Positions 2,477 through 64,000 of a stretch of DNA of 64,000 nt are shown here, piece by piece (within the stretch, counting starts at the first letter, position 1; every line of letters begins with the position of its first letter). Under the pieces are notes generated by a model. That model was not told the origin of the DNA and made no database searches. It worked only from the letters and a program-made list of their open reading frames with translations. This DNA is from an uncultured Gammaproteobacteria bacterium (lineage in GTDB: Bacteria > Patescibacteriota > Patescibacteriia > S139-126). The position numbers and the translations under genes were made by a program. The DNA lies in assembly GCA_964493305.1 (NCBI GenBank), contig CAZBLW010000001.1, positions 17,743-81,742 of the forward strand. Direction: 5' to 3'.

Positions 2477-3232
2477 ATGTACTATTATGTGTACGATCAT
2501 TTTGTTGGCGAAAAAAAATATCAACCGCTGATAGCTAAAATTGAAAATCGATTAACTGATTTGGAAATAAAAGGTAAGATTGGACGTTTAAGTTTATTAA
2601 ACAACCCTCAAGAATTAATTGAGGATGAAATAAAAAAGGGCGCTAAAACAATTGTGGCAGTTGGCGACGACACAACAGTAAGTAAGGTTATAAATGTCTT
2701 AGCTTATCACAGCGATGTTTGTTTAGGTATTATTCCTATCGGTCAAAATTTAAAAATCGCTCAAACCCTTGGTCTTAACAATCCGGTAGAGGCTTGTAAT
2801 GCTTTGGCGTCAAGGATTATAAAAAAAATTGACATGGGTAAAATCAAAAATTTCTTTTTTTTGTCACAATTAGAAGTACAACCGGGTGAAGTTGTTTTAG
2901 AATGTGATGATTCATATAAAATTACAGTTGATCAAAAAAATCAGGTGACAATTTATAATTTTAATTATTGGTCCGATGATCACTTAGCCAACCCTACCGA
3001 CGGTTTGTTGGAAACAACAATTTTCAACTATAAGAAAAATTTTTTGAATAAACTTACAACTAAAAATTTTATACCTACTTTATTAAAAAACAAAAAAATT
3101 ATTATCCAACATAAAAATGAGGCGGTACAAGTAAAAATTGATGGGCAACAGACAATGAAAACGCCACTTTTGGTAGAAGTGGCTAGCGAAAAATTAAAAA
3201 TTATTATGGGAAAAAATAGGATCTTTACCTGA
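2477..3232 (+). CDS. diacylglycerol-kinase catalytic-domain (DAGK_cat, YegS/BmrU-like) lipid kinase
   Basis: VAVGDDTTVSKVINVL...LGIIPIGQNLKIAQTLG matches the DAGK_cat ATP-binding region. Confidence 0.55.
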   Translation: MYYYVYDHFVGEKKYQPLIAKIENRLTDLEIKGKIGRLSLLNNPQELIEDEIKKGAKTIVAVGDDTTVSKVINVLAYHSDVCLGIIPIGQNLKIAQTLGLNNPVEACNALASRIIKKIDMGKIKNFFFLSQLEVQPGEVVLECDDSYKITVDQKNQVTIYNFNYWSDDHLANPTDGLLETTIFNYKKNFLNKLTTKNFIPTLLKNKKIIIQHKNEAVQVKIDGQQTMKTPLLVEVASEKLKIIMGKNRIFT

Positions 3233-3234
3233 TT

Positions 3235-3546
3235 TTATTGGGTAATATCAATAAAAACCACCGGGCTAGGATCTTCTACCGGTGTATTTTTTTGCTTATT
3301 TTTCCTTTTAATAATTTTGACAACATCTTCTTCAACTATCATTTTTGTGCTGTTGATTTCAATTACTTGCCTGGGGGAAATCAATAAAACTGCAGATACA
3401 AATTGACCAAAAGCACTTGACTTGACGGCATACTTTTCAACAATATGTTCTTTTTCATTAATTTCTATAAAACTTACTTTGCCAATTTTTGTTCCGGATT
3501 CAGTGAAAACTGGTAAATTAGTCAGTTGTTTTGAGTTTAGAGTCAT
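3235..3546 (-). CDS. small PRC-barrel-like domain protein (YlmC/YmxH-like)
   Basis: 103 aa with the pattern L..LPVFTESGTKIGKVSFIEINEKEHIVEKYAV. It sits immediately downstream of yidC, where Jag/PRC-type small proteins often occur. Confidence 0.35.
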   Translation of the reverse strand: MTLNSKQLTNLPVFTESGTKIGKVSFIEINEKEHIVEKYAVKSSAFGQFVSAVLLISPRQVIEINSTKMIVEEDVVKIIKRKNKQKNTPVEDPSPVVFIDITQ

Positions 3547-4255
3547 GGTGGTTGTTTTTAAACACGATTAATTGCTGTAAACCGGTTAGAACAGTATTGA
3601 TAAACCAATATAAGGTGAGGCCTGCTGGAAAAGACAAGCCAATAAAAACGGTAAATATCGGCATAACATAAATCATCTGCTTGTTCATAATTGCGGCTAG
3701 GTTTTCATCTTTTGATCCGGGAGTATTTATTTCTGGTCGTTTAGTTGACAACATTCTTCCTTGCCAAAACTGAGCAGCTCCTGCTAGTAAAGCCAACCAA
3801 ATGCTTCTTTGCGACAATTCGATAAAACCAAAAGCCAAGGTATTTAAACTACCGGGATTATGTATAAAAGGATACAAATATTCTAAATAACCATTGGCTA
3901 GTCCGGTACGAAAGACTTGATAAACAGCTATTAAGAAGGGGAGTTGAACCAAAATTGGCAAGCAAGATGAGGCGGGATTAATTTTTTCGTTTTTATATAA
4001 CTCCATGGTGGCCTTGGCTTGAGCTTCTCTATCTTGACCATACTTTTCTTTGATAGCGGTAAGTTTGGGTTGTAATTCTTGTAAGGCCTTTTGTGATATA
4101 ATCGCCTTTTTATTAAGTGGGTACAGTAATAATTTGATTAATATTGTGAGAACTATTATTGCCAAGCCCAAATCAGACCAAGGCAAAACGTCGTATAGCC
4201 AAACCAACAAGTTTAGTAATGGTACATAAAAAATTGTTTTAAAAAATTCAATCAT
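3518..4255 (-). CDS. yidC: membrane protein insertase YidC (short Gram-positive/Oxa1 type)
   Basis: 245 aa with LLYPLNKKAIISQKALQELQPKLTAIKEKYGQD...MELYKNEKINPASSCLPILVQLPFLIAVYQV. Conserved rnpA-yidD-yidC order. Confidence 0.9.
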   Translation of the reverse strand: MIEFFKTIFYVPLLNLLVWLYDVLPWSDLGLAIIVLTILIKLLLYPLNKKAIISQKALQELQPKLTAIKEKYGQDREAQAKATMELYKNEKINPASSCLPILVQLPFLIAVYQVFRTGLANGYLEYLYPFIHNPGSLNTLAFGFIELSQRSIWLALLAGAAQFWQGRMLSTKRPEINTPGSKDENLAAIMNKQMIYVMPIFTVFIGLSFPAGLTLYWFINTVLTGLQQLIVFKNNHHDSKLKTTD

Positions 4256-4259
4256 TTAT

Positions 4260-4517
4260 TTATTTTATAGGATCATAACCTCCCTTGCTAAAAGGGTGAC
4301 ACCGCAACAATCGATAAAAACCAAGCCCCAGACCTTTTATTAGACCCTTTTTGTTTATAGCATCCACAGTGTATTGTGAACAGGTGGGATAAAAACGGCA
4401 AGTGCCATAAGGTTTTAAAATTTTTATATACCCATGATCAAGCGAAAAAATTTTCTGATAAACTTTTATTATCAAAATAAGGGCCTGGCTTATTTTCTTT
4501 TCTAATTTCAATAACAT
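4260..4517 (-). CDS. yidD: membrane protein insertion efficiency factor YidD
   Basis: [41 protein letters not shown] is the DUF37/YidD signature. Confidence 0.9.
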
Positions 4518-4834
4518 ATTTTATTTAAATCCGCCGAAATCTCTTGATGGGTCTTACCAATAGCTGAATTTTTAACAACCAACATATAATCAAAAGGCGG
4601 AATTTTATCTTTAATCTTATATAAGTCGCTTTTTATCCAACGACGCAATAAATTACGTTTAGTGGCTAGTTTAGATGTTTTCTGGGAAATTACTATACCA
4701 AAACGTGGGTTTTTTTGTTCTGGTTTTGATTTATAAATATAAAAAATAAAAAAGTTTGAATGTCTTTTTTTTCCTTTTTTAGCCACTTGGGCAAAATCCG
4801 CTTGCCTTTGTAAACGATAGGCCGGTGATAACAT
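4508..4834 (-). CDS. rnpA: ribonuclease P protein component RnpA
   Basis: 108 aa, basic, with the [17 protein letters not shown]...[10 protein letters not shown] pattern. Sits between rpmH and yidD. Confidence 0.9.
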
Positions 4835-4838
4835 AGCT

Positions 4839-4979
4839 TTAACTAACGCTCAATCGTTGTCTTTGTTTGTTTCTTCTTCTTTTTAGGACTTTTTTGCCTT
4901 TGGTTGAAGAGTTTCTTGCTCTAAAACCGTGTGTTTTTATTCTTTTTCTTTTTTTTGGTTGATAGGTTCTTTTAGGCAT
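4839..4979 (-). CDS. rpmH: 50S ribosomal protein L34
   Basis: Not in the ORF track. Hand translation of the minus strand gives [46 protein letters not shown] (46 aa), the canonical L34 pattern. It lies immediately upstream of rnpA. Confidence 0.9.
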
Positions 4980-5169
4980 ATTTTTAATTAGTAAAATAAA
5001 TATATCAAGAAGTTATCATTAGGTCAAAAAAATAATTTTGTTTTTGTTTTTTCAGTTTTCACAATTTTTCAACATCTTATCACCTTTTTAAATTAATTGG
5101 ATGGTTTTTAAAAATAATCAGCAATGCTATAATGTGAAACGTTATTAGTAAAAAATAATTAAAACAAAT

Positions 5170-6540
5170 ATGGACTCAAAACAACTTTGGGAGGCAATCT
5201 TAGGCGAACTAGAACTCAGTCTGAGCAAAGCTAATTTCACTACCTGGTTCAAAAATACTTTTATTTTACAAATGAATGATCACGAAATTATTGTGGCCGT
5301 TCCAAACGCTTTCACCAAAGCTTGGTTAGAAAAAAAATATCACAAATATATTACTGATGCTCTAAAAAATGTTAGTGATAAAACCTTTACCAAGGTTAAT
5401 TATGTCGTAGAAACCAAAGAAAAACAAGCTGTTAACCCAAACACTGAAAATGATTTTGGTCTAATAGAAAATCAGCCCGTCTCTACACCAAATAATCACC
5501 CGGTTACCAATAATAAAGTCGGTCTAAATCCAAAATACACATTTGAAAGTTTCGTGGTTGGTAAGGGTAATGAGTTGGCACACGCTGCTTGTTTGGCAGT
5601 AGCAAAAAAACCGGGTGAAGTTTATAACCCGCTTTTTATTTATGGAGGGGTGGGTTTAGGTAAAACCCATTTAATGCAAGCGGTGGGTAATTTTATTTTA
5701 AACGAACAAACCAACAAAAAGGTCCTTTATGTTACCAGTGAAAAATTTACCAATGACTTCATACAACTAGTGCAACAAGGTGAAGCCAAAAAATTCAAAG
5801 AAAAATATCGCAACATTGATGTTTTGTTGGTTGATGATATCCAATTTTTAGCTGGCAAAGAGCAAACTCAAGAAGAATTTTTCCATACCTTCAATACCCT
5901 TCATCAAGAAAACAAACAAATAATTATTTCTTCTGATCGACCACCCAAAGCTATTCCTGCGCTGGAACAAAGGCTTATTTCTCGTTTTGAATGGGGGATG
6001 ATTGTTGATGTAAATGCCCCTGATTTAGAGACCAGAATTGCTATTATTGCTACTAAAATGAAGGAAAAAAACCTATCTTTATCTGATGAAATTGTCCGTA
6101 TAATTGCTACTTCGGTACAAAATAATGTGCGGGAATTGGAAGGAATCCTAAATAAAATTATTGCCTTTCATCAACTTAATAACACCCCACCGACAGAAGA
6201 CAGTGTAAAAAGTATAATTTCCTCCTTGTCCACTAATATTAAAAGAAGTCATATTACTCCTAAAAAATTAATTCAGACTGTTGCTGCTTACTTTGATATT
6301 GATACTGATGGTCTGGTGGGGAATAGCAGAAAAAAAGAATTGGTAGTGCCTAGACAAATAGTCATGTTTTTAATGAGAGAAGAATTAGACGCGTCTTATC
6401 CTAATATCGGACAAGAGTTGGGAGGAAGGGATCATACTACTGCAATGCATGCTTGTAACAAAATTAGTAAGGAAGTTGAAAGTGATGAAAAGATTGCTCG
6501 TGACATCGAAATGATTAAACAGCGCTTATACAATGGTTAA
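5170..6540 (+). CDS. dnaA: chromosomal replication initiator DnaA
   Basis: 456 aa. N-terminal MDSKQLWEAILGELELSLSKANFTTWF, AAA+ Walker A GGVGLGKTHL, Walker B LLVDDIQFL, and a C-terminal DNA-binding domain. Confidence 0.95.
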   Translation: MDSKQLWEAILGELELSLSKANFTTWFKNTFILQMNDHEIIVAVPNAFTKAWLEKKYHKYITDALKNVSDKTFTKVNYVVETKEKQAVNPNTENDFGLIENQPVSTPNNHPVTNNKVGLNPKYTFESFVVGKGNELAHAACLAVAKKPGEVYNPLFIYGGVGLGKTHLMQAVGNFILNEQTNKKVLYVTSEKFTNDFIQLVQQGEAKKFKEKYRNIDVLLVDDIQFLAGKEQTQEEFFHTFNTLHQENKQIIISSDRPPKAIPALEQRLISRFEWGMIVDVNAPDLETRIAIIATKMKEKNLSLSDEIVRIIATSVQNNVRELEGILNKIIAFHQLNNTPPTEDSVKSIISSLSTNIKRSHITPKKLIQTVAAYFDIDTDGLVGNSRKKELVVPRQIVMFLMREELDASYPNIGQELGGRDHTTAMHACNKISKEVESDEKIARDIEMIKQRLYNG

Positions 6541-6775
6541 TTTATTTAAAAGCTGTTAATAAGTTACTGAAAGGTTTGTTATTTTCTTTTGATAATTTTT
6601 AGATAAAAGGTTAACAAAAAAATAAAAAAAATAAAAAAATTTCTTTTCAATATTTTATACACTTTTTTTACTAGGAGAAGCAAAAAATTTTTTTACTTAA
6701 GATTATATAAAATTTTTTATTTTCCACTGTTTCCACAACACCTATTATTATTGCTTTTAAAATTATTTATAATAT

Positions 6776-7879
6776 ATGAAATTCATATGCACTCAAGAAA
6801 ATTTAAAAAGAGGTTTGGGTTTGGTTTCACACCTAGCAGGTAGAAATCAAAATTTACCAATTCTTAATAACGTTTTATTGGAAGCCAAGGGTGGTGGTTT
6901 AATTTTATCAACTACTAATTTAGAAATAGGTATTAAAAGCAATATTAGAGGCAAGGTAGAAAAAGAAGGTTCGCTGACGGTACCTGCGCGTTTATTTTTT
7001 GATTATATTCAAAGTATTAGAGGTGAAAAAATTGAGATCGAAAGCAAAGGAAACAATTTGGAAATAAAAACGGAAAGTTCCCAAACAGTACTCAAAGGGC
7101 TGGATTATTCAGAGTTTCCACTTATTCCAGAAATTGAAAAAAAAATATCAATAACCCTAAACGCAGGTGAACTCAAGGAAGCCCTTAACCTAGTTTTATT
7201 TGCTACAGCAATGGACAACGCCAGGCCAGAAATAAGCGGAGTATTATTTAATTTTGAAAACAATCAACTTACTCTTGCTGCCACTGACAGCTATCGTTTG
7301 GCCGAAAAGAAAATTAATATAAAAAATAGTTTGGAAAAAGAAAAAAAATTAATAATTCCCGCCTTTACCTTACAAGAATTAAGCAGACTAATAAGTGAGG
7401 TTGATAAAAAAGAAAGTTTACAAATGAATATCAATGAAAACCAAGTGAGCTTTGAGTGTGATGCTACCGTTATGATATCTCGTATAACCGAAGGGGAATA
7501 TCCTGATTATAAACAAATAATACCTCAAGACACCAAAACCAAAGTAACCGTGGATAAAAATATTTTACAACAGAACATAAAAGCAGCGAGTTTGTTTTGT
7601 AGACAAGGAATCAATGATCTTAATTTATTTTTTTATGAAAATAAAATTGAAATCAGGGCGCTAAACGACCAGTTGGGTGAAAGTAAAAACGTTGTTGAGG
7701 GCAAAATAGAAGGAGAAAAAAACCAAATTATTTTTAATTATCATTACTTACTAGATGTTTTATCTAGTATGAGTTCTAACGAAGTGGTAATAAAAATAAA
7801 TAATCCCGAAATGCCGGGATTAATAAAGCCTTTAGCCGGAGAGGATTATTTGTATATAATTATGCCAATTAAACAATAA
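6776..7879 (+). CDS. dnaN: DNA polymerase III beta sliding clamp DnaN
   Basis: 367 aa with a three-domain clamp pattern. Directly downstream of dnaA. Confidence 0.9.
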   Translation: MKFICTQENLKRGLGLVSHLAGRNQNLPILNNVLLEAKGGGLILSTTNLEIGIKSNIRGKVEKEGSLTVPARLFFDYIQSIRGEKIEIESKGNNLEIKTESSQTVLKGLDYSEFPLIPEIEKKISITLNAGELKEALNLVLFATAMDNARPEISGVLFNFENNQLTLAATDSYRLAEKKINIKNSLEKEKKLIIPAFTLQELSRLISEVDKKESLQMNINENQVSFECDATVMISRITEGEYPDYKQIIPQDTKTKVTVDKNILQQNIKAASLFCRQGINDLNLFFYENKIEIRALNDQLGESKNVVEGKIEGEKNQIIFNYHYLLDVLSSMSSNEVVIKINNPEMPGLIKPLAGEDYLYIIMPIKQ

Positions 7880-48617: not shown

Positions 48618-49037
48618 TTAGTAATACGGTTGATAAGTGGCCCACAGAATTGATCTAAAAATCCAAGTTGATAGCGCGTAAGCCAGTACCACAATCAATA
48701 GCCCAATAGTGGCTTGGGTCAAAATTTTTCTAGCTTTTTCTACTTGTTGATCATTACCGGCTGCAGTCATCCACAAAAAACCACCGTAGATAATAAGTAC
48801 CGTAAATAAAACTCCCAAAAATCCAAGCAGGGCATTGATAATCAATGCCACAACTTCGCGTACGTCAGTATCAGCATTGCCTAGTTCAGCTGCTACACCA
48901 GTATCAATAATACCTTGTTTGATTTTAGTACCAGCATTTTGTCCAGTGGTCGTGGCTAGCGCTGGTAAAGCAGCCGGGAATATCAACAATCCGAGAATAA
49001 AAGTAGTGATAATTATGGAAAAGATATTTTTTTTCAT
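48618..49037 (-). CDS. two-helix pilin-like membrane protein, paralog 1 (T4SS-pilin/VirB2-like topology)
   Basis: ORF trimmed to MKKNIFSIIITTFILG (signal-like). Conserved core LGFLGVLFTVLIIYGGFLWMTAAGNDQQVEKARKILTQATIGLLIVVLAYALSTWIF. Confidence 0.55.
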   Translation of the reverse strand: MKKNIFSIIITTFILGLLIFPAALPALATTTGQNAGTKIKQGIIDTGVAAELGNADTDVREVVALIINALLGFLGVLFTVLIIYGGFLWMTAAGNDQQVEKARKILTQATIGLLIVVLAYALSTWIFRSILWATYQPYY

Positions 49038-49041
49038 ATTT

Positions 49042-49425
49042 TTAAACTGAGCCGGTAGCTGAGAGTATAACATTGATAATAAATAATGATAAACCATAAG
49101 CCAAAATCACTATCAACAGTCCTACTGTGGAACTGGTTAAAATCTTCCTCGCCTTATCAATTTGTTGATCATTGCCAGCTGCGGTCATCCACAAAAAACC
49201 ACCGTAGATAATAAGGACCAAAAAAATCGTACCCACAAAACCCAGGGCATATTTGATAATATTACCGACTAAAAATGCCGGATCTTCAGCTTCAGCAAGT
49301 CTGGCTTTATCGTTGGTCGCTTGGGCAGTAGTTAAGGCATCTTGCAGTACGGAAGCTTTTACTAAGCTAGGCCAGGTAAATAGGAGGCCAACAAGTAAAT
49401 AAAATTTAATTTTTAGTTGATTCAT
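49042..49425 (-). CDS. two-helix pilin-like membrane protein, paralog 2
   Basis: ORF trimmed to MNQLKIKFYLLVGLLFTWPSLVKA, with GGGGGT upstream. Core FLVLIIYGGFLWMTAAGNDQQIDKARKILTSSTVGLLIVILAYGLS. A 40-nt stretch is nearly identical to paralog 1. Confidence 0.55.
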   Translation of the reverse strand: MNQLKIKFYLLVGLLFTWPSLVKASVLQDALTTAQATNDKARLAEAEDPAFLVGNIIKYALGFVGTIFLVLIIYGGFLWMTAAGNDQQIDKARKILTSSTVGLLIVILAYGLSLFIINVILSATGSV

Positions 49426-49427
49426 AA

Positions 49428-49757
49428 TTATACCCCCGAAGCAATTAAGGTTTTTAAAACAAATTGAGTGATAGCAAAAGCCAGGGCCACAATCAGTAAA
49501 CCAATAGTAGAAGAGCGGATAGTTTTTTGGGCTTTTTGAATTTTCTCCTCGTTGCCCGCTGCAGTCATCCAATTAAAACCAGCATAAATAATCAAAACCA
49601 AAAAAACTGTACCCAAAATTCCTAAAATAGAGTTAATAATTCCTCCCACTACATCTGGAAGTGATGGATTGGTAAGACCAGTAGCACGTTGAGCATCAGA
49701 TAGCTGTTGGTCCATCGAAGGGATTTGAGCGTAAGCTTGCTTAATAAATTTAAACAT
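49428..49757 (-). CDS. two-helix pilin-like membrane protein, paralog 3 (no N-terminal signal segment)
   Basis: Core GTVFLVLIIYAGFNWMTAAGNEEKIQKAQKTIRSSTIGLLIVALAFAITQF. Confidence 0.5.
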   Translation of the reverse strand: MFKFIKQAYAQIPSMDQQLSDAQRATGLTNPSLPDVVGGIINSILGILGTVFLVLIIYAGFNWMTAAGNEEKIQKAQKTIRSSTIGLLIVALAFAITQFVLKTLIASGV

Positions 49758-49760
49758 AAA

Positions 49761-50369
49761 TTAAATACAGATATAAAGACTACTACACAGTTCAGCACAA
49801 GTAGCGTTTGGTCGAAAAAGATCGCCATTGGTGCAGCTAGCACTAGTTTGTCCATTTAGACAAGTATATTCAGTAGTATTAACCGGATGTAGACAAGCGC
49901 CAGTGGTAGTTGTACCCCCACTGCCAGAAGAAGCCTTATTGTAAGATTGGATAAAAAAGTTTGTCAAAGCAAAAGATAAAAATACCAATATAAAACCAAC
50001 TACCGCACTAGCTAAAATTTTGGTAGCTTGTCTAACTTTTTCTTCATTGCCACCAGCAGTCATCCAAGTAAAACCGCCATAGATAAATAGTACCAGCATC
50101 ACCACCCCGATAATACTTAAAATCCCGTTGATAATCGTGCCAATTCTAGTACCCAAAGAAACGTCAGATTTTAAACTACCAGCCGCTTTATCAAGATTTG
50201 ATAGGGCATCAGCGCGGGCTAGTAAAGTATAATTTGTGTTTGTTTCAGCGGCCGATACCTCAGTCGCTAAGACAAACAATCCACCAATAAACACGGTGGC
50301 TATCAAAATGACAGCCACCGTGTTGTGGAATATAAGTTCTTTTATTTTATTTGAAAAATAAAAATTCAT
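49761..50369 (-). CDS. two-helix pilin-like membrane protein, paralog 4, with a Cys-rich C-terminal extension
   Basis: ORF trimmed to MNFYFSNKIKELIF... (TM/signal). Core VVMLVLFIYGGFTWMTAGGNEEKVRQATKILASAVVGFILVFLSFALT. Tail ...TGACLHPVNTTEYTCLNGQTSASCTNGDLFRPNATCAELCSSLYICI. Confidence 0.5.
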   Translation of the reverse strand: MNFYFSNKIKELIFHNTVAVILIATVFIGGLFVLATEVSAAETNTNYTLLARADALSNLDKAAGSLKSDVSLGTRIGTIINGILSIIGVVMLVLFIYGGFTWMTAGGNEEKVRQATKILASAVVGFILVFLSFALTNFFIQSYNKASSGSGGTTTTGACLHPVNTTEYTCLNGQTSASCTNGDLFRPNATCAELCSSLYICI

Positions 50370-50377
50370 TACAGTAA

Positions 50378-50731
50378 TTATGTAGTAGCACCAATGATTA
50401 CGCTGAAGATCCAAGTAGAAAGTGCGTAAGCGATGATAATAATTAATAAACCAATTACGCCAGCGCTGATAATTTTCTTAGCCTGTGCAACAGCTTCTTC
50501 GTTACCACCTGCGGTCATCCAACGGAAACCACCAGCAATGATAATCAAAGTCACTACGATACCCAAAATGCCTAAAACTACATTGATAATACGAGCGATG
50601 GTTTCTCGGACGTCTTGAGTGCCAAGACCGATTAAGCTACCATAGCCAGTACCAAATGGGTCACCAGCCATAGCGGCGACTGGAGCTAATAAAAGTGACA
50701 AAAGACCAAAAGCTAAAAGTTGTTTTTTCAT
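50378..50731 (-). CDS. two-helix pilin-like membrane protein, paralog 5
   Basis: Strong AAGGAGG RBS and signal peptide MKKQLLAFGLLSLLLAPVAAMA. Core GIVVTLIIIAGGFRWMTAGGNEEAVAQAKKIISAGVIGLLIIIIAYALSTWIF. Confidence 0.6.
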   Translation of the reverse strand: MKKQLLAFGLLSLLLAPVAAMAGDPFGTGYGSLIGLGTQDVRETIARIINVVLGILGIVVTLIIIAGGFRWMTAGGNEEAVAQAKKIISAGVIGLLIIIIAYALSTWIFSVIIGATT

Positions 50732-57485: not shown

Positions 57486-58913
57486 TTATTCGCAACAAGG
57501 TTGACATGATATATCACAGCGTTCACAACCATCACAACGAGTATCGCAAGATTGGCAGTTTTGTTCACATCGTGATTGACAGCGATATTCACAAGTAGTC
57601 TCACAGTTATTATCGCAGCCACCTTGGCAAGTGTAACAATTTTGGCAAGTATTACATTCTTCACAATCCTCACAGCGATAACAATTTTGGCAAGTGTAAC
57701 AGGTGCCACACATTTTCATATCTTGTTCATTTTCTTGATTATTGTCGCAACTGGTGACACAAAAACCATCGCAGTATTCACAGCCTTGGCAAAAATATTC
57801 GCAGTTATTATGAGTGATAGCTTTGTTCGCTTGTGGTTGTGGAGATAGGTGTTGCCCAATCTGTTTGGCAGTCAAAATACGTAGAGCACATTCGATAGGT
57901 ACCGGTGAAGTTGAAAGTTTGTTAGTCAGATAGTTGTCAGCCCAACAGCCGCCGTTGCAAAACTCCAGCGCGGGACAGTTTTGGCAAGTTTCGTTTATTG
58001 ATTTGTCACTGGGTGGGAGAGTTGATTTTTTGATTGCTAAGGTAATTTCTTCTGGAGTAGCTGTCGCTGCATCAATAATCATATTTGCACGATTATTAGT
58101 TAAATGGTGACAATGATACAGTCCACCTTCAATATCTAGAGCCCATAGGCCCCGGCCAGCTCCGCAATAAGTGAATTCACTTTTTTTGCCATGATATTTA
58201 ATCAGGGTGCTAATTTTTTTTCTGCCATAGCGTTCAAAACATTGTTTGATTTGTTCCCCCCAAATATTGAGAGTTTCTTCAGTCCAGTTCATATTGAAAG
58301 CAGGAAAAAGTCCTACGACTTTGAAACCTTGATTAAGTAAAAATTCTGATATTTCCATCAGATAATAAACGCTATCAGGAGTGACAGTGACACGAGCGGT
58401 ATCATTGGGGGTAATATTTAGGGCAAAAGGAATATTTTTAACAACATCAGCAAATGAACCACGACCATTGACATAGGGTCGTTGTTTATCTTGAATATGA
58501 GCCGGTCCATCAATTGAGCAGTGAATGCCCGCTCCTTGTGATATCATCACTTTCATTTTTTGTTCATCTAACGCTATTAAATTTGAAGTCATGCCCCAAC
58601 TGAATTTTATTTTTTGTAAATCAAATGATTGTTTAGCTAGAGTGTTGAGTTGTTGAATTTCATCCCAAGCTAACATAGGCTCGCCCCCCATATAATAGAA
58701 GCTGACTTCTTTTAATGTTGATAGTTGTGCTGCTAAAAAATTTTGTACGGCTTGCCAAACTTTAAATACATTCATTTTGCGTTTACCTTTGTCACCGAAG
58801 TAACAATAAGTACATAGTAGTTGGCAGATATTGGTAGCATCAATCATAAAGTTGATACTTGCTTGATTGTTTTTAGCCAAGGTTTTGGCGGGTTGTTTGA
58901 CCATGGTTTTCAT
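57486..58913 (-). CDS. radical SAM / SPASM-domain enzyme with a fused ~105-aa CxxC-repeat tail
   Basis: CxxxCxxC (CQLLCTYCYF) radical-SAM cluster motif. SPASM CQNCPALEFCNGGCWADNY. The final ~105 residues contain about 38 Cys in a period-3 CxxC pattern (…CGTCYTCQNCYRCEDCEECNTCQNCYTCQGGCDNNCETTCEYRCQSRCEQNCQSCDTRCDGCERCDISCQPCC). Confidence 0.75.
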   Translation of the reverse strand: MKTMVKQPAKTLAKNNQASINFMIDATNICQLLCTYCYFGDKGKRKMNVFKVWQAVQNFLAAQLSTLKEVSFYYMGGEPMLAWDEIQQLNTLAKQSFDLQKIKFSWGMTSNLIALDEQKMKVMISQGAGIHCSIDGPAHIQDKQRPYVNGRGSFADVVKNIPFALNITPNDTARVTVTPDSVYYLMEISEFLLNQGFKVVGLFPAFNMNWTEETLNIWGEQIKQCFERYGRKKISTLIKYHGKKSEFTYCGAGRGLWALDIEGGLYHCHHLTNNRANMIIDAATATPEEITLAIKKSTLPPSDKSINETCQNCPALEFCNGGCWADNYLTNKLSTSPVPIECALRILTAKQIGQHLSPQPQANKAITHNNCEYFCQGCEYCDGFCVTSCDNNQENEQDMKMCGTCYTCQNCYRCEDCEECNTCQNCYTCQGGCDNNCETTCEYRCQSRCEQNCQSCDTRCDGCERCDISCQPCCE

Positions 58914-59990: not shown

Positions 59991-60184
59991 GGTTGATTTT
60001 TATGGTCAAAAATGGTGAAATAAAGACAAGAAGATAATTATTAATTACTAATAACTAATTACGAATCAATTAATTAATTTTTAATTATTTAACTTCTAAT
60101 TCTTTATTCGTAATACGTAATTCTTAATTCCTAATTCTTATCGTAATTCGTAATACGTAATTCTTAATTCTTAAATTTATTAAC

Positions 60185-60934
60185 ATGCGAAAAAATATAT
60201 ATATCATAGTTGTTCTTTTGCTTCTCCTTCTTTTGGGGGTGATAGCTTTTTGGTGGTGGCAGCAAGCAAACAATAAAAAAGTTTCCGATTCAACCAGTCA
60301 AACTGATAGTCAAACAGTCCAAGTGGTTGAACCAGAAGAGTTTACCCCAACAGAAGATATTGTAGTGGATGATGCAACTGAAACAGGTGAGGTGGTGATA
60401 GTAGATGAACCAGTAAATAATGAACCAGTGGTAACAGACAACCAACCGCAACAGAACAATCAAGACAATCAAGCTCCCAACAATCAGCCCCCAGCTCAAG
60501 AACCGCCAAGCAATGTTTGCCAAACTGACACTGACTGCCAAACCAATTTTTATTGTGAATATGCCAAAGGCCAGTGTGGTGGTAGTGGTGAGTGTGTAGC
60601 CAAATCTGAGGCATGTACTTTGCAGTATGCTCCAGTGTGTGGTTGTGATGGTAAAACCTATGGCAATTCTTGTCAGGCTAGAGCCGCGGGAGTGAGTGTC
60701 GAGTATGACGGGCAGTGTCAAAATACTTGTCAGTCAAGTAATGATTGTGACGCCAATGAATATTGTGCCAAAGAAGTAGGACAGTGTAACCAAGTAGGTG
60801 AGTGTAAAACCAAACCCCAAACTTGTACGATTATTTATTCTCCAGTCTGCGGGTGTGATGGTGAAACTTATGGCAACAGTTGTCAAGCAACCCTGGCTGG
60901 TATGACTGTTTCCTCCGCCGGCGCTTGTCAGTAG
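60185..60934 (+). CDS. secreted/membrane-anchored protein with two Kazal-type protease-inhibitor-like domains
   Basis: N-terminal TM/signal, a Pro/Gln/Asn-rich linker, then two copies of C-x-Y-x-PVCGCDG-x-TYGNSCQA (the Kazal signature). Confidence 0.75.
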   Translation: MRKNIYIIVVLLLLLLLGVIAFWWWQQANNKKVSDSTSQTDSQTVQVVEPEEFTPTEDIVVDDATETGEVVIVDEPVNNEPVVTDNQPQQNNQDNQAPNNQPPAQEPPSNVCQTDTDCQTNFYCEYAKGQCGGSGECVAKSEACTLQYAPVCGCDGKTYGNSCQARAAGVSVEYDGQCQNTCQSSNDCDANEYCAKEVGQCNQVGECKTKPQTCTIIYSPVCGCDGETYGNSCQATLAGMTVSSAGACQ

Positions 60935-60993: not shown

Positions 60994-61046
60994 GAATTTA
61001 TTCCTGAATTAATTCAAGAGCTATTACTTTCAACTTTATAAACTTT
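60994..61046 (+). repeat. copy 1 of a 52-nt direct repeat (leader of the NYN gene)
   Basis: GAATTTATTCCTGAATTAATTCAAGAGCTATTACTTTCAACTTTATAAACTT is identical to 61679-61730, and each copy ends about 20 nt before an ATG. Confidence 0.8.
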
Positions 61047-61065
61047 CTAACTTTAAACTAAATTA

Positions 61066-61567
61066 ATGTCGACAAAAGAAAAAAAATTACGCCTTTATAG
61101 ATAGTCAAAATTTAAATCTTGGCATTCAAAGTTTAGGTTGGAAACTTGATTATAGAAGGTTCAGAAGATATCTAAAAGAAAAGTATCAAGTTGACGTTGC
61201 GTATTTATTTATTGGTTATATGCCTGAGAATCAGGATTTGTATTCGGCTTTGCAGTCATATGGATATGTCTTGATATTTAAACCGACTTTGTCAGATAAA
61301 GATGGAAATGTGAAAGGCAATGTGGATGCAGATTTGGTTTTACAAGCTATGATTGATTATGAAAAATATGATAAAGCATTAATAGTATCTAGCGACGGAG
61401 ATTTTTATTGTTTAGTAAAATATTTATATAAACAAGAGAAATTAAAAGTAGTTATTAGTCCTTATGTAAAAACCTGCTCTATTTTATTGAAAAAAACTGC
61501 TAAAGAAAAAATAATATTTATGGATAATCTGCAAAATAAATTGGCCTATAAAGAAAAACACCGCTAG
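61066..61567 (+). pseudogene. NYN/LabA-like domain protein gene disrupted by a frameshift in an A8 homopolymer (61079-61086)
   Basis: The ATG at 61066 reads MSTKEKKLRLYR*. The +1 frame has no start codon but reads ...YAFIDSQNLNLGIQSLGWKLDYRRFRRYLKEKYQVDVAYLFIGY... into ORF 61220..61567 (NVDADLVLQAMIDY...IVSSDGDFYCLVKYL is the NYN motif). Removing one A restores a single ~166-codon ORF. Confidence 0.65.
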
Positions 61568-61634
61568 GGGACAAAACCCAAAGAGGTGTTCTTCAATGTG
61601 TATTCTGTAGATATTATATATTTTTTTAATAAAT

Positions 61635-61666
61635 TTGTCAATATTAGGGTATATAAATGTTATAAT
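61635..61666 (+). promoter_or_regulatory. near-consensus sigma70 promoter with extended -10 (TTGTCA-17-TGtTATAAT)
   Basis: -35 TTGTCA at 61635-61640, TG at 61658-61659 and -10 TATAAT at 61661-61666. It lies 13 nt upstream of repeat copy 2. Confidence 0.5.
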
Positions 61667-61678
61667 TAAAATATTCAC

Positions 61679-61730
61679 GAATTTATTCCTGAATTAATTC
61701 AAGAGCTATTACTTTCAACTTTATAAACTT
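61679..61730 (+). repeat. copy 2 of the 52-nt direct repeat (leader of the AbrB-like gene)
   Basis: Identical to 60994-61045. Confidence 0.8.
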
Positions 61731-61750
61731 TTAACTTTTAACTAATTACC

Positions 61751-61936
61751 ATGGGCCGTCGTGTACTAAATCAAAATAATATACGCAAACTAACAAAAAC
61801 AGGTGGTGGTAAGTCCATCGCGGTGACTATTCCCATTGAAATGGTGAGGGAATTGAAGTGGCGGGAAAGGCAGAAGGTAGTGGTGACAAAACGAGGAAAG
61901 AGTATTATTATAAAGGATTGGAAAAAAATAATATGA
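61751..61936 (+). CDS. AbrB/MazE/SpoVT-family (swapped-hairpin) DNA-binding protein
   Basis: 61 aa with GGGKSIAVTIPIEMVRELKWRERQKVVVTKRGKSIIIK, the swapped-hairpin barrel pattern. Confidence 0.6.
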   Translation: MGRRVLNQNNIRKLTKTGGGKSIAVTIPIEMVRELKWRERQKVVVTKRGKSIIIKDWKKII

Positions 61937-61993
61937 CAAATTTTATTCATAGTGCAAATAGCAAGGTATAAAGTGAAATATTAAAATTTAATA

Positions 61994-64000
61994 ATGTTAA
62001 ATTTAAAAAATATTGAAATAAAAAAGAATTATGATTCAGATAAGGACGATCTTCTTAAAGATTTTTTTATTCCTGTATTATCAACAGCCGTACTCTACAG
62101 AAGACTTGCGGGATTTTTTTCTTCAGGTATATTTTCCGCAGCTTCTAGGGGCATTAAAGAGCTAATTGATAATAATGGTAAAATGCAGTTGATTATAGGC
62201 GTTCAAGTTAATGAAGAAGACTATTTGATGTTAAAAAAAATAGTTAAAGAATCAAAAGAATTGCCTGAGAAGTACATAACAAATAAAATTGATAATTTAG
62301 AGGAATTTTTAAAAAGTGAACATGTTGAAGCTATGGGATGGATGATTTTAAATAATTTATTAGATATAAAATTTGCAGTTACTAACCGTGGTGGTATTTT
62401 TCATATGAAGGTAGGAATAGTTACTGATAAAAATGGTGATAGTTTATCATTTAGTGGTAGTGATAATGAAACTCCTTCTGGTTGGAAGCATAATGTTGAG
62501 GAGTTTAAAGTGTTTCGTAAATGGATAGATTCAGAAGCTGACTATTTTAATGCCGATGAAGAAAAGTTTAATCGTTTTTGGAATGATAAAGGTAATAATG
62601 TAACTATTTTTGAATTACCAAAAGCAATAAAGGAAAAAATTGTTAAAAGTGTACCAAAAGAACAAAGTGATTTAAAAATATTTAAAAATGAAAATAATTT
62701 AGATAGTAATATATATTTAAATACTCCTGTTGAAATTAAATTAAGACCTCACCAAAAGGAAGCAATAAAAAAATGGGAAAATAATAGTTATAAAGGAATA
62801 TTAGCCATGGCTACTGGTTCAGGAAAAACAAAATCAGCATTATATGCAGTTAAAAATTTATTAAATAATGACAAATCTCTATGTGTAATTATTGCTGTTC
62901 CATTTGGTCATTTAATAAATCAATGGATAACTAATGATATTAGACTTCAATTTCCAGATATTTCTATTATTGAAGCGAGTTCAGAAAATACTAAATGGCG
63001 AAGTCAATTAAAATTGATGTTAGAAGGATATTCAAAAAATATTACAAAAGTTTTTTTTATTGTAACTACATATGCAACCTTATCGTCAGATGATTTTATT
63101 AATATTTTTCTACATAAATATAATAATAACCTAAATTATTTTTTAATTGCTGATGAAGTCCATAATCTTGGAGCAAAAGAAACTCAACGAGCAATGTTAG
63201 TAGAGTATAACTATAGAATGGGATTAACCGCTACACCTAAACGACACTTTGATGATCTAGGAACGGATAAAATAATTAAATATTTTAATAAGATTGTGTA
63301 TGAGTATGAATTAAAAGACGCAATAAGAGATGGTTATCTCGTAAAGTATAAATATTATCCTATTATTATTGAGATGACAGATGAAGAATATGATGAGTAT
63401 AATAATATATCACAAAAGATAAGTAAGCGGGCGGCTATATTAAATTTACGAAAATCAGATATATTAATAAATAATGATTTAAGTTTACAAATTTTATTAC
63501 AAAAAAGAAGTAAAATAATAAAGGAGTCATCTGCAAAAATTCCAATATTAGATAAGACTTTAAAAGAAATGAAAAAAAAGGGATCAATCGATCATTTGTT
63601 AATTTATTGTGATAATATTAAACAATTAGAAAAAGTACAAGTAATACTATATAATGAAGGTATAATTAGTCATCAGTTTACGAAAGAGGAAAGTCTAAAA
63701 GAAAGAAGAAATATACTTGATCATTTTATACAAGGTAATTATAAGTGTTTGGTAGCTATTAAATGTCTTGATGAAGGTGTTGACGTACCTTCTATAAAAA
63801 CAGCAATTATTATAGCTAGTACAACCAATCCTCGGGAGTATATACAAAGAAGAGGGAGAGTATTAAGAAAAGAGCAAAATAAAGAAAATGCCATAATATA
63901 CGATTTTATAGTAATACCTAAGCTTGCAAGAAGTAGTGAAATAGATCAATATGAAAAACAGATATTACGAAAAGAATTAACTAGAGTATTAGATTTTATA
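61994..64000 (+). CDS. PLD-family (HKD) nuclease domain fused to an SF2 DEAH/ResIII-type helicase; partial, continues beyond window end
   Basis: Frame from the ATG at 61994 (MLNLKNIEIKK...). The ATG at 62031 is out of frame and hits a stop. HKD motif IFHMKVGIVTD. Helicase motif I AMATGSGKT, II IADEVHNL, III GLTATP, VI QRRGRVLR. Confidence 0.7.
   Translation, partial: MLNLKNIEIKKNYDSDKDDLLKDFFIPVLSTAVLYRRLAGFFSSGIFSAASRGIKELIDNNGKMQLIIGVQVNEEDYLMLKKIVKESKELPEKYITNKIDNLEEFLKSEHVEAMGWMILNNLLDIKFAVTNRGGIFHMKVGIVTDKNGDSLSFSGSDNETPSGWKHNVEEFKVFRKWIDSEADYFNADEEKFNRFWNDKGNNVTIFELPKAIKEKIVKSVPKEQSDLKIFKNENNLDSNIYLNTPVEIKLRPHQKEAIKKWENNSYKGILAMATGSGKTKSALYAVKNLLNNDKSLCVIIAVPFGHLINQWITNDIRLQFPDISIIEASSENTKWRSQLKLMLEGYSKNITKVFFIVTTYATLSSDDFINIFLHKYNNNLNYFLIADEVHNLGAKETQRAMLVEYNYRMGLTATPKRHFDDLGTDKIIKYFNKIVYEYELKDAIRDGYLVKYKYYPIIIEMTDEEYDEYNNISQKISKRAAILNLRKSDILINNDLSLQILLQKRSKIIKESSAKIPILDKTLKEMKKKGSIDHLLIYCDNIKQLEKVQVILYNEGIISHQFTKEESLKERRNILDHFIQGNYKCLVAIKCLDEGVDVPSIKTAIIIASTTNPREYIQRRGRVLRKEQNKENAIIYDFIVIPKLARSSEIDQYEKQILRKELTRVLDFI

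What the first reader, a model, noticed from the sequence alone, without database searches (positions are those of the whole stretch)
61066..64000. Candidate anti-phage/restriction island: NYN RNase-like gene, AbrB-like regulator, PLD-nuclease/SF2-helicase fusion
At the window end a large ORF combines an N-terminal PLD (HKD) nuclease domain with a DEAH/ResIII helicase core (motifs I, II, III, VI seen). PLD plus helicase combinations are building blocks of DISARM-like and type III-like defence systems. It is preceded by a swapped-hairpin AbrB/MazE-type small DNA-binding gene and a phase-variable-looking NYN nuclease gene, and the whole block follows a secreted double-Kazal gene. The ORF continues beyond the window, so the system cannot be classified.
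Basis: partly seen in the sequence, partly recalled or inferred. Interest (0 to 1): 0.6.

Follow-up and report, generated by a model that had tools for sequence, protein, structure and literature searches.

The report
Methylase-linked PbeABCD defence island
The large gene at the window end is PbeA, the first gene of a known four-gene antiviral system (PbeABCD) sitting in a low-GC island of a tiny-genome (CPR) bacterium. Here and in its closest relatives the system sits next to a Dam-type adenine methylase instead of the sulfur-modification genes it was discovered with.

Summary
ORF 61994->64000 encodes an N-terminal HKD/PLD nuclease fused to an SF2 helicase. It is preceded by an AbrB/MazE-fold gene and a frameshifted NYN gene.

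The system can be classified. The ORF is PbeA (PADLOC PbeA, E 4e-227). Identical contigs from three sequencing runs supply the missing downstream DNA: PbeB (58 aa), PbeC (CxC ABC ATPase), PbeD (dnd_assoc_4, DndE-like), a Dam-family adenine methyltransferase, DUF3800 and NUDIX. All of this lies in a roughly 8.5-kb block of about 25% GC in a Patescibacteria chromosome.

No dnd or ssp sulfur-modification gene is found in the 71 kb available. All seven loci with PbeA at least 43% identical carry a D12-class methyltransferase next to pbeA, and none shows dnd genes in the flanks available. More distant relatives (22-36%) are mostly linked to DndCDE or Ssp-like genes.

Best reading: a methylation-coupled PbeABCD restriction system, not DISARM, type III R-M or XPB repair. 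MTase-adjacent "solitary" pbeAC loci were already listed by Xiong et al. 2019, so this is a new member of a known kind.

The NYN gene is a very widespread CPR gene broken here by one extra A. Programmed phase variation is not supported.

The parts
61994..64000 (+). pbeA: N-terminal HKD/PLD nuclease (about residues 12-215) fused to an SF2 helicase (about 247-640). 669 of 693 codons lie in the window; the gene ends 75 nt beyond it.
   Evidence: PADLOC PbeA E 4.3e-227, covering model positions 2-658 of 672. Pfam ResIII and Helicase_C. HKD and helicase motifs invariant in 30 homologs. AF2 model best matches SauUSI. Full-length identical protein P0001.
62402..62470 (+). HKD catalytic signature of PbeA: H137-M-K139 ... 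D145 ... S154-G-S-D-N158-E159.
   Evidence: All of these residues are invariant in alignment A2. Read directly from the sequence.
61751..61936 (+). AbrB/MazE-fold (SpoVT/AbrB) 61-aa gene, 57 nt upstream of pbeA. Candidate transcriptional controller of the operon (inferred).
   Evidence: PF04014, 27.5 bits, above cutoff. No terminator predicted between it and pbeA. Found only in this organism's locus.
61679..61745 (+). Copy 2 of a 68-nt direct repeat, ending 5 nt before the AbrB ATG. Contains the perfect palindrome TGAATTAATTCA (61690-61701). Candidate shared promoter/operator (inferred).
   Evidence: Only two copies in the window (0 expected by chance). No significant RNA fold. No Rfam hit.
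60994..61061 (+). Copy 1 of the same repeat, ending 4 nt before the NYN ATG. Coincides with the left edge of the low-GC block.
61066..61567 (+). NYN (LabA/DUF88-type) nuclease gene, disrupted by a +1 frameshift in the A8 run at 61079-61086. Neighbour of the system; membership not shown.
   Evidence: PF01936. Frames. Removing one A gives a 166-aa product that matches more than 7900 Patescibacteria proteins, most of the best 120 exactly 166 aa. An intact homolog has A7 at this position.

Best explanation
**What it is.** The window ends inside a horizontally acquired, low-GC defence island of a Patescibacteria (CPR) chromosome. The island encodes a PbeABCD-type restriction module together with a Dam-family N6-adenine DNA methyltransferase.

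**Shown.** The gene order is abrB-like, pbeA (HKD nuclease + SF2 helicase), pbeB (58 aa), pbeC (CxC ABC ATPase), pbeD (dnd_assoc_4, DndE-like), Dam-family MTase, DUF3800, NUDIX.

**Inferred mechanism.**
- The methyltransferase marks the host chromosome. The site is probably GATC, because the enzyme's closest solved relatives are DpnM and E. coli Dam.
- The PbeC-PbeD pair (an ATPase dimer with a zinc hook plus a DNA-binding subunit) scans DNA and reads whether sites are modified.
- On unmodified incoming DNA it licenses PbeA, which translocates with its helicase motor. PbeA then blocks replication and/or cuts with its HKD nuclease.
- PbeB is a small regulatory or adaptor subunit.
- The AbrB-like protein is a locus-specific transcriptional controller. 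It acts on a promoter/operator that is duplicated in front of the neighbouring NYN gene.

In this lineage, adenine methylation has replaced DNA phosphorothioation as the self-mark.
For: **Component identities.**
- PbeA: PADLOC E 4e-227.
- PbeC: PADLOC E 4e-81. CxC at about residue 329 and the Walker A motif are conserved in five clade members.
- PbeD: PF27807 and TIGR04062 dnd_assoc_4.
- PbeB: a 58-aa ORF overlapping the pbeC start, 33-54% identical across five relatives.
- These roles match Xiong 2019 (PMC6459918) and Rakesh et al. 2024 (PMC10853773).

**Same DNA.** L002, L003 and L004 are 100% identical to the window over the overlap.

**Methyltransferase.**
- TIGR00571 dam, 275 bits against a cutoff of 115.
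- The FxGxG and DPPY motifs are present.
- Best PDB matches are DpnM (E 6e-60) and E. coli Dam. Dam residues N120, R124 and P134 are conserved.

**Linkage.**
- In 7 of 7 loci with PbeA at least 43% identical, a PF02086 MTase is adjacent to pbeA. In L006 the two genes overlap by 4 nt.
- None of these loci shows dnd genes in the flanks available: 8-10 kb on both sides in L007, L008 and L182, less on one side in L001, L005 and L006.
- tblastn with DndC, DndE, cysteine desulfurase and Ssp-like queries finds nothing in the window plus 7 kb.
- More distant relatives (22-36%) are mostly linked to DndCDE or Ssp-like genes. The modification partner therefore switches between clades.

**Nuclease competence.** The HKD residues are invariant, and the fold matches the ATP-dependent restriction enzyme SauUSI.

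**Island character.**
- GC is 21-30% from about 61.0 to 69.5 kb (window-equivalent), against 33-45% in the flanks.
- Relatives sit next to tRNA genes or an integrase.
Against: - No experiment or methylome supports the methylation coupling.
- The rest of the 558-kb genome could not be read, so distant dnd or ssp genes are not excluded.
- In this locus the MTase lies at the 3' end, 128 nt after pbeD and behind a terminator-like hairpin. In relatives it lies in the operon's first position. It could therefore be a separate unit.
- MTase identity to the clade's MTases (35-41%, and a different D12 subtype in L008) is lower than PbeA identity (43-52%). This suggests partner exchange rather than strict co-evolution.
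- PADLOC models do not hit PbeB or PbeD.
- TIGR04095 and TIGR04062 score below their curated cutoffs.
- In the only tested Pbe system no DNA cleavage was seen (PMC6459918), so the nuclease step is contested.
- GATC is not notably depleted in the window (observed/expected 0.83), and GATC specificity is not proven.
Confidence: 0.65

Rival explanations
1. Classical phosphorothioate-dependent Pbe. The pbeABCD module depends on PT modification made by dnd or ssp genes located elsewhere in the genome. The neighbouring Dam-family MTase is unrelated (an orphan, or part of another R-M pair).
For: The only experimentally characterised PbeABCD needs PT. Many distant relatives are linked to DndCDE or Ssp-like genes. 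In this locus the MTase is separated from pbeD by a terminator-like hairpin.
Against: There is no dnd or ssp homolog, nor even a cysteine desulfurase, in 71 kb. All 7 loci of the closest clade carry the D12 MTase next to pbeA and none shows dnd genes in the flanks available. The NCBIfam PT-restriction model TIGR04095 scores 433 against a cutoff of 600. Genomes of about 0.56 Mb have little room for a distant five-gene dnd cluster (inference).
Confidence: 0.12
2. Modification-independent suicide/abortive system. The HKD-helicase is held in check by the small protein PbeB and is released on infection, as in the alternative model of Rakesh et al. 2024. The MTase plays no self-marking role for it.
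For: This model is proposed in PMC10853773. Some relatives at about 40% identity have no annotated MTase or dnd gene nearby (L089, L090). Xiong et al. report 320 of 553 pbeAC loci as solitary.
Against: The tight, operonic MTase-pbeA linkage in 7 of 7 closest loci, including a 4-nt overlap in L006, is hard to explain without a functional tie.
Confidence: 0.15
3. One reading: a DISARM-like or type III-like system, or else a housekeeping XPB-type repair helicase.
For: The ResIII Pfam domain is present and the helicase core has an XPB-like fold. PLD plus helicase parts also occur in DISARM.
Against: PbeA and PbeC models win by more than 100 orders of magnitude. No DUF1998 partner appears in the precomputed Pfam annotation of the downstream genes, and the only DISARM-related match of the locus proteins is a very weak DruE2|DruE hit (E 7e-4). 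The MTase is an alpha-class D12 Dam type, not a type III Mod. The XPB equivalog scores 72 bits against a cutoff of 610. The neighbours are defence genes in a low-GC island.
Confidence: 0.03

Closest known systems
DndCDEA-PbeABCD of Haloterrigena jeotgali / Natrinema A29 (Xiong et al. 2019, PMC6459918)
   Same: The same four-gene cassette in the same order, with the same sizes. PbeA is a helicase with an N-terminal HKD domain. PbeB is about 60 aa, PbeC is an ABC ATPase of about 640 aa, and PbeD is about 150 aa. PADLOC PbeA and PbeC models match end to end.
   Different: No dndCDEA is adjacent; a Dam-family m6A methyltransferase is present instead. The host is a Patescibacteria bacterium, not a haloarchaeon. 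An AbrB-fold gene precedes pbeA. The PT motif of the archaeal system is GpsATC, and the MTase here is closest to GATC enzymes. That parallel is suggestive but untested.
CxC ABC-ATPase/DndE-anchored systems with DNA methylases (Rakesh, Aravind & Krishnan 2024, PMC10853773)
   Same: An HKD+SF2 helicase, a small protein, a CxC ATPase, a DndE cognate and a DNA methylase in place of PT genes. The CxC motif is present in PbeC.
   Different: That paper's text mentions only cytosine-5 and cytosine-N4 methylases, plus MTaX1. Here the partner is a D12-class adenine-N6 methylase, and no MTaX1 was seen.
Solitary pbeAC loci near MTases (Xiong et al. 2019, Supplementary Data)
   Same: 155 of 320 dnd-less pbeAC loci were reported within 10 kb of an MTase, and pairing with methylation was proposed.
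   Different: The MTase class and clade structure were not described there, and CPR genomes were not found in the held supplementary text. Here the linkage holds in 7 of 7 loci of one clade.
SauUSI (PDB 7CLG), ATP-dependent type IV restriction enzyme
   Same: An N-terminal PLD-family nuclease followed by an SF2 helicase motor. It is the best structural match, over 647 columns.
   Different: SauUSI has a C-terminal target-recognition domain and works alone on modified cytosine DNA. PbeA lacks that domain (693 aa against 953 aa; SauUSI length from my own knowledge) and comes with PbeBCD.

Membership tests
PbeABCD (Xiong 2019) / CxC ABC-ATPase-DndE system (Rakesh 2024) | PbeA: HKD nuclease domain fused to an SF2 (ResIII-type) helicase | tested here: met
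   PADLOC PbeA E 4.3e-227, near full-length. HKD and helicase motifs invariant. SauUSI-like fold.
PbeABCD / CxC system | PbeB: small (about 60-aa), fast-evolving protein encoded between pbeA and pbeC | tested here: met
   58-aa ORF at L002 2379-2555, 4 nt after pbeA and overlapping the pbeC start. 33-54% identical to the equivalent ORFs in five relatives. No HMM hit.
PbeABCD / CxC system | PbeC: DndD-related ABC ATPase with a CxC zinc hook in the coiled coil | tested here: met
   PADLOC PbeC E 4e-81. The DndD model scores only 92 bits against a cutoff of 246. CIC at residues 329-331 and Walker A GRNKIGKS, both conserved in the clade.
PbeABCD / CxC system | PbeD: DndE-cognate DNA-binding protein (about 150 aa) | tested here: inconclusive
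   PF27807 DNA_S_mod_dnd_assoc_4 hit. TIGR04062 scores 38 bits against a cutoff of 74. No PADLOC hit. The AF2 model was unusable (pLDDT 38). The profile finds no PDB relative.
Dnd-Pbe (PT-based) defence as originally defined | Adjacent dndCDE(A) or another PT-modification cluster | tested here: not met
   No DndC, DndE, cysteine desulfurase or Ssp-like homolog in the window plus 7 kb. None in the flanks available for the seven closest loci. The rest of the genome was not readable.
NCBIfam TIGR04095 'DNA phosphorothioation system restriction enzyme' | Score at or above the curated cutoff (600 bits) | tested here: not met
   433 bits over model positions 3-428 of 451.
Dnd-Pbe | PT-dependent (or modification-dependent) protection against viruses | not testable with these tools
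   Needs expression, phage challenge and a methylome or PT analysis.
Dam-family (D12 class, alpha) N6-adenine DNA methyltransferase | TIGR00571 above cutoff; FxGxG and DPPY motifs | tested here: met
   275 bits against a cutoff of 115. EPFLGGGAVF and YLDPPY read in the sequence. DpnM E 6e-60. GATC specificity is inferred only.
DISARM | DrmA helicase plus DrmB (DUF1998) plus DrmC (PLD) or DrmD, with an MTase | tested here: not met
   No DUF1998 in the precomputed Pfam annotation of the downstream genes. The only DISARM-related PADLOC match of the locus proteins is a very weak DruE2|DruE hit (E 7e-4); otherwise show Pbe models.
Type III R-M | Res with a PD-(D/E)xK nuclease, plus a Mod (beta-class MTase with TRD) | tested here: not met
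   The nuclease is HKD, not PD-(D/E)xK. The MTase is a D12 Dam type.
XPB repair helicase | NF045503 equivalog score at or above 610; Bax1-type partner | tested here: not met
   72 bits. The similarity is limited to the helicase fold. The partners are PbeBCD.

The most novel reading that the evidence does not exclude
The Pbe restriction module may be agnostic to the chemistry of the self-mark. In one clade spread through CPR bacteria it reads N6-methyladenine laid down by a Dam-type enzyme, likely at GATC. That is the same core motif that carries the phosphorothioate (GpsATC) in the characterised archaeal system. If so, PbeCD would be a site-state reader that evolution has re-paired from backbone sulfur to base methylation. 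The AbrB-fold protein would be a new type of R-M controller (a C-protein analogue) in this locus.
Probability: 0.35. Interest if true: 0.6.

Novelty: new member of a known kind. Interest (0 to 1): 0.4.

Why it matters
PbeABCD has been tested in one archaeal system only. Its mechanism (cleavage or replication block) and its dependence on phosphorothioation are both disputed. More than half of the known pbeAC loci lack dnd genes, and the suggestion that they pair with methylation has never been tested.

The clade found here gives a compact cassette with an adenine methylase in or beside the operon in 7 of 7 loci. In relatives it is five genes (MTase-pbeABCD); in this locus an AbrB-like gene is added. 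No sulfur-modification gene is visible around any of them. That makes the suggestion directly testable in E. coli (dam+ against dam-).

It also adds a defined multi-gene defence system to the sparse picture of immunity in ultra-small CPR bacteria. For genome annotation, the 'DEAD/DEAH box helicase' label these proteins currently carry hides a defence system.

Tried and rejected
- **Source genome in GTDB representatives.** Only a 50%-identical Paceibacterota relative was found. The 558-kb NCBI contig carrying P0001 could not be fetched, and only Logan contigs were returned. A genome-wide search for dnd was therefore impossible.
- **PbeD structure.** AF2 with a two-sequence alignment failed (pLDDT 38). 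A PbeD profile against PDB sequences gave no hits. A word-based homolog search for PbeD returned only two proteins.
- **NYN phase variation.**
  - Exact look-up of the 115-aa truncated ORF: not on record.
  - No 100%-identical intact allele among homologs.
  - Other overlapping ORF pairs in the window were checked as possible assembly frameshifts. They are separate genes: RuvC/YebC and tandem pilins.
- **GATC avoidance in the window.** Observed/expected is 0.83, which is uninformative.
- **The 68-nt repeat and the conserved NYN 3' flank as RNA elements.** No Rfam hit, and fold z-scores are about 0.
- **A third repeat copy at the right end of the island.** None found.
- **Viral contigs.** Only distant PbeA relatives (38% or less) were found, and the neighbourhoods were not analysed.
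- **Rejected classifications.** DISARM, type III R-M and XPB were considered and rejected.
Full report

An uninterrupted reading frame starts at ATG 61994 and runs to the last base of the window (669 codons). This DNA is only 26% G+C, where stop codons are frequent, so a frame of that length is not chance.

- Pfam finds ResIII (residues 247-417, E 1.6e-23) and Helicase_C (518-626, E 9.5e-18). PLDc_2 scores only at E 0.0045, below its cutoff.
- The PLD/HKD assignment is nevertheless secure, for three reasons:
  - NCBIfam's 'phospholipase D-like domain-containing anti-phage protein' aligns to residues 12-313 (E 1.4e-33).
  - In an alignment of 30 homologs, H137, K139, G141, D145, S154, G155, S156, N158 and E159 are invariant. 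So are helicase motifs I (G277-K-T), II (D387-E-x-H), III and VI.
  - An AlphaFold2 model (mean pLDDT 82) has as its best PDB match SauUSI, a restriction enzyme built from a PLD nuclease and an SF2 motor (E 3.5e-22, 647 aligned columns). XPB helicases match the motor half only.
- The AbrB/MazE-fold gene (61751-61936; PF04014, 27.5 bits), the NYN gene (PF01936, 54 bits) and the double-Kazal gene (60185-60934) are also confirmed.

**2. What the big ORF is**

PADLOC's PbeA model matches it end to end (E 4.3e-227, model positions 2-658 of 672). NCBIfam TIGR04095 ('DNA phosphorothioation system restriction enzyme') scores 433 bits, below its cutoff of 600. The XPB equivalog scores 72 bits against 610.

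A protein search returned a 693-aa protein identical over all 669 residues (P0001). It is recorded on a 558-kb NCBI contig and on contigs from three independent sequencing runs (L002-L004). Those contigs are 100% identical to the window across the overlap, so they continue the window.

**3. The rest of the system**

In L002 coordinates (position 293 corresponds to window 61994):

| Gene | L002 coordinates | Evidence |
|---|---|---|
| pbeA | 293-2374 | see section 2 |
| 58-aa ORF (PbeB) | 2379-2555 | no HMM hit |
| PbeC | 2552-4480 | PADLOC PbeC E 4e-81; the DndD model scores only 92 bits against 246 |
| 154-aa protein (PbeD) | 4443-4907 | dnd_assoc_4 family: PF27807; TIGR04062 38 bits against a cutoff of 74 |
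| Dam-family MTase | 5035-5886 | TIGR00571 275 bits against a cutoff of 115 |
| DUF3800 | 5945-6568 | PADLOC candidate PDC-M04A |
| NUDIX | 6773-7156 | |
| 158-aa ORF | 7247-7723 | |

- PbeC has a Walker A motif and a C-I-C motif at residues 329-331. Both are conserved in four relatives. This is the CxC zinc hook that Rakesh et al. use to define the clade (PMC10853773).
- The 58-aa ORF is a real gene. The ORF in the same position in five relatives is 33-54% identical to it.
- Sizes, order and families match PbeABCD as defined by Xiong et al. (PbeB 66 aa, PbeD 152 aa; PMC6459918). They also match the re-annotation by Rakesh et al.: HKD-SF2, small protein, CxC ABC ATPase, DndE cognate.

**4. Context**

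- The window is chromosomal. It carries dnaA, dnaN, a PBP, TyrRS and glycogen-metabolism genes.
- The organism is a Patescibacteria/CPR bacterium:
  - The nearest PbeA in GTDB representatives is from a Ca. Paceibacterota MAG.
  - The NYN gene's named close homologs are all Patescibacteria.
- G+C falls from 33-45% to 21-30% between about 61.0 kb and about 69.5 kb in window-equivalent coordinates, then rises again. This fits a horizontally acquired island of about 8.5 kb.
- Related cassettes lie next to tRNA-Tyr (L001), tRNA-Gln (L008) or an integrase gene (L005).

**5. Which modification does it pair with?**

The characterised system depends on phosphorothioation by DndCDEA. Here the evidence points elsewhere.

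- tblastn used DndC, DndE, cysteine desulfurase, a PAPS-reductase variant and two Ssp-like families, all taken from Pbe-linked metagenome loci. It finds nothing in the window plus 7 kb. Pfam scans of other window genes show only housekeeping functions.
- The closest clade tells the same story. Seven loci have PbeA at 43-100% identity: the window, L001, L005, L006, L007, L008 and L182.
  - All seven carry a PF02086 (D12-class) methyltransferase directly beside pbeA.
  - In the six relatives it lies immediately upstream. In L006 it overlaps pbeA by 4 nt.
  - None shows a dnd gene in the flanks available. These reach 8-10 kb on both sides in L007, L008 and L182, and are shorter on one side in L001, L005 and L006.
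- At about 40% identity the partner varies. L091 has a C5 methylase. L089 has DndB only. L090 has tandem Pbe cassettes with no annotated MTase.
- Among 41 metagenome loci at 22-36% identity, those with long flanks mostly carry one of two sets:
  - DndC/DndD/DndE;
  - a set of a 292-aa protein, a roughly 1180-aa ATPase, a PAPS-reductase-type protein and a cysteine desulfurase. I read this as SspABCD-like; it is named from memory and only DndC, DndE and the desulfurase were confirmed by HMM.

The modification partner therefore switches between clades, and this clade uses a Dam-type enzyme.

**6. The methyltransferase**

- It has the SAM loop (EPFLGGGAVF) and the catalytic DPPY motif (YLDPPY).
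- Its best solved relatives are DpnM/M.DpnIIA (E 5.9e-60) and E. coli Dam (E about 5e-38). Both are GATC enzymes by my own knowledge.
- In the alignment, Dam N120, R124 and P134 are kept. K9 becomes R, L122 becomes V and Y119 becomes F (the residue roles are from my memory of the Dam-DNA structure). GATC specificity is therefore plausible but unproven.
- The PT motif of the archaeal Dnd-Pbe system is GpsATC. This is a suggestive parallel only.
- GATC is not markedly depleted in the window (observed/expected 0.83).

**7. How this locus differs from its relatives**

- The MTase lies at the 3' end, 128 nt after pbeD and behind a 10-bp terminator-like hairpin.
- The 5' position is taken by the AbrB-fold gene, which no relative has.
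- A 68-nt sequence (53 nt exact) ends 4-5 nt before the start codons of both the NYN gene and the AbrB gene, at 60994-61061 and 61679-61745.
  - It contains a perfect 12-bp palindrome, TGAATTAATTCA.
  - It shows no significant RNA structure and no Rfam match.
- I infer a duplicated promoter/operator, with the AbrB-like protein as its likely regulator, by analogy with R-M controller proteins. None of this is shown.

**8. The NYN gene**

- The ATG at 61066 is out of frame with the NYN domain.
- Removing one A from the A8 run at 61079-61086 gives a 166-aa protein. That protein has more than 7900 database homologs. The best 120 are 74-84% identical, and most are exactly 166 aa.
- An 81%-identical intact homolog has A7 at the same place.
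- No intact identical allele is on record.
- The window holds 64 A/T runs of 8 or more, and the genes examined are intact.
- The copy is therefore either a pseudogene or a single assembly error. Programmed phase variation is not supported.
- The gene is not specific to Pbe loci:
  - In L001 it lies before tRNA-Tyr and the MTase-pbe cassette.
  - In L100 it lies before an HKD-SNF2 helicase and a type IIG-like MTase.
  - In L092 it lies before a serpin gene.
- Three of four contexts have a defence island just downstream. That may mark an insertion hot spot. I record it as an aside.

**9. Mechanism**

*Shown:* the gene content, motif integrity, island character and clade-wide MTase linkage.

*Inferred from family knowledge (PMC6459918, PMC10853773):*
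- The MTase marks self DNA.
- PbeC-PbeD scan DNA and read the modification state.
- PbeA translocates, and either blocks replication or cuts with its HKD site.
- PbeB regulates.

Whether DNA is cut is disputed in the literature. No cleavage was seen in Natrinema, yet the HKD residues are invariant and the fold is that of a true restriction nuclease.

**10. Novelty**

- The family is known and is in PADLOC.
- Xiong et al. listed 155 dnd-less pbeAC loci near MTases and proposed pairing with methylation.
- Rakesh et al. described CxC systems with cytosine methylases.
- What is added here:
  - a clade-wide operonic link (7 of 7) to a D12 adenine methylase;
  - its presence in CPR bacteria;
  - a locus-specific AbrB-type gene.
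- I class it as a new member of a known kind, with moderate interest. It makes the untested methylation-pairing hypothesis easy to test.

Noticed in passing
window 61066-61567; L001 8131-8652; L100 5001-5501; L092 4001-4501: The repaired NYN protein (166 aa) belongs to an extremely abundant and unusually conserved Patescibacteria family: more than 7900 hits, the best 120 at 74-84% identity and most exactly 166 aa. In 3 of 4 contexts examined a defence or R-M island lies immediately downstream: Dam-PbeABCD twice, and an HKD-SNF2 helicase plus a type IIG-like MTase once. This may mark a defence-island insertion hot spot or a functional link.
   Followed up: partly
window 60994-61061 and 61679-61745; L100 about 4960-4995 and 5935-5970: The same upstream sequence is duplicated in front of the NYN gene and in front of the first gene of the neighbouring defence operon. 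In the window it is a 68-nt repeat with the palindrome TGAATTAATTCA. In L100 it is a different 35-nt promoter-like sequence, TTGACAAAAGCAGTCTA[A/G]AAATGTAAAATAGAG. This suggests co-regulation of NYN and the adjacent defence genes.
   Followed up: partly
window 61565-61610; L100 5498-5545; L092 about 4500-4545: About 45 nt directly after the NYN stop codon (TAGGGGAC[G/A]AAACCC..AGAGGTGTT.TTC.ATGTGTATTCT) are as conserved as the coding sequence across three CPR genomes. In L001 the reading frame extends into this region. No Rfam hit and no significant fold.
   Followed up: partly
window 61641..61613 (minus strand): A perfect sigma-70 consensus (TTGACA, 17 nt, TATAAT; 12 of 12) points antisense into the 3' end of the NYN gene. 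On the plus strand an extended -10 (TGTTATAAT, about 61658-61666) lies just before repeat copy 2.
   Followed up: no
window 57486-58913 (minus strand): A radical SAM protein (475 aa) has a long C-terminal tail of CxxC/CxxxC repeats (about 40 cysteines in the last roughly 110 residues). It sits next to small membrane-protein genes. Possibly a peptide-maturase-type enzyme with an unusual Cys-rich extension.
   Followed up: no
window 48618-50731 (minus strand): Four tandem genes each carry a T4SS_pilin domain (PF18895). This is a paralogous pilin array in a CPR genome.
   Followed up: partly
window 60036-60180: The AT-rich tract upstream of the Kazal gene contains tandem and inverted copies of a TTCGTAATACGTAATTCTTAATTC motif (D2 and I1).
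   Followed up: no
L090 8001-18025: A Methanobrevibacter contig carries two tandem pbeABC(D) cassettes about 2 kb apart, separated by a B12-binding-domain gene. No methylase or dnd gene is annotated nearby.
   Followed up: no
L089 12320-13291: In one relative the PbeD (dnd_assoc_4) domain is fused to a SLFN/AlbA_2 domain (323 aa), and a DndB gene lies about 1.3 kb downstream without DndCDE.
   Followed up: no
L002 5945-7723 (window-equivalent about 67.6-69.4 kb): Inside the same low-GC block as pbeABCD and the MTase lie DUF3800 (PADLOC candidate PDC-M04A, E 3e-14), a NUDIX hydrolase (PDC-S07, E 1e-11) and a 158-aa ORF. They may be further defence cargo.
   Followed up: partly
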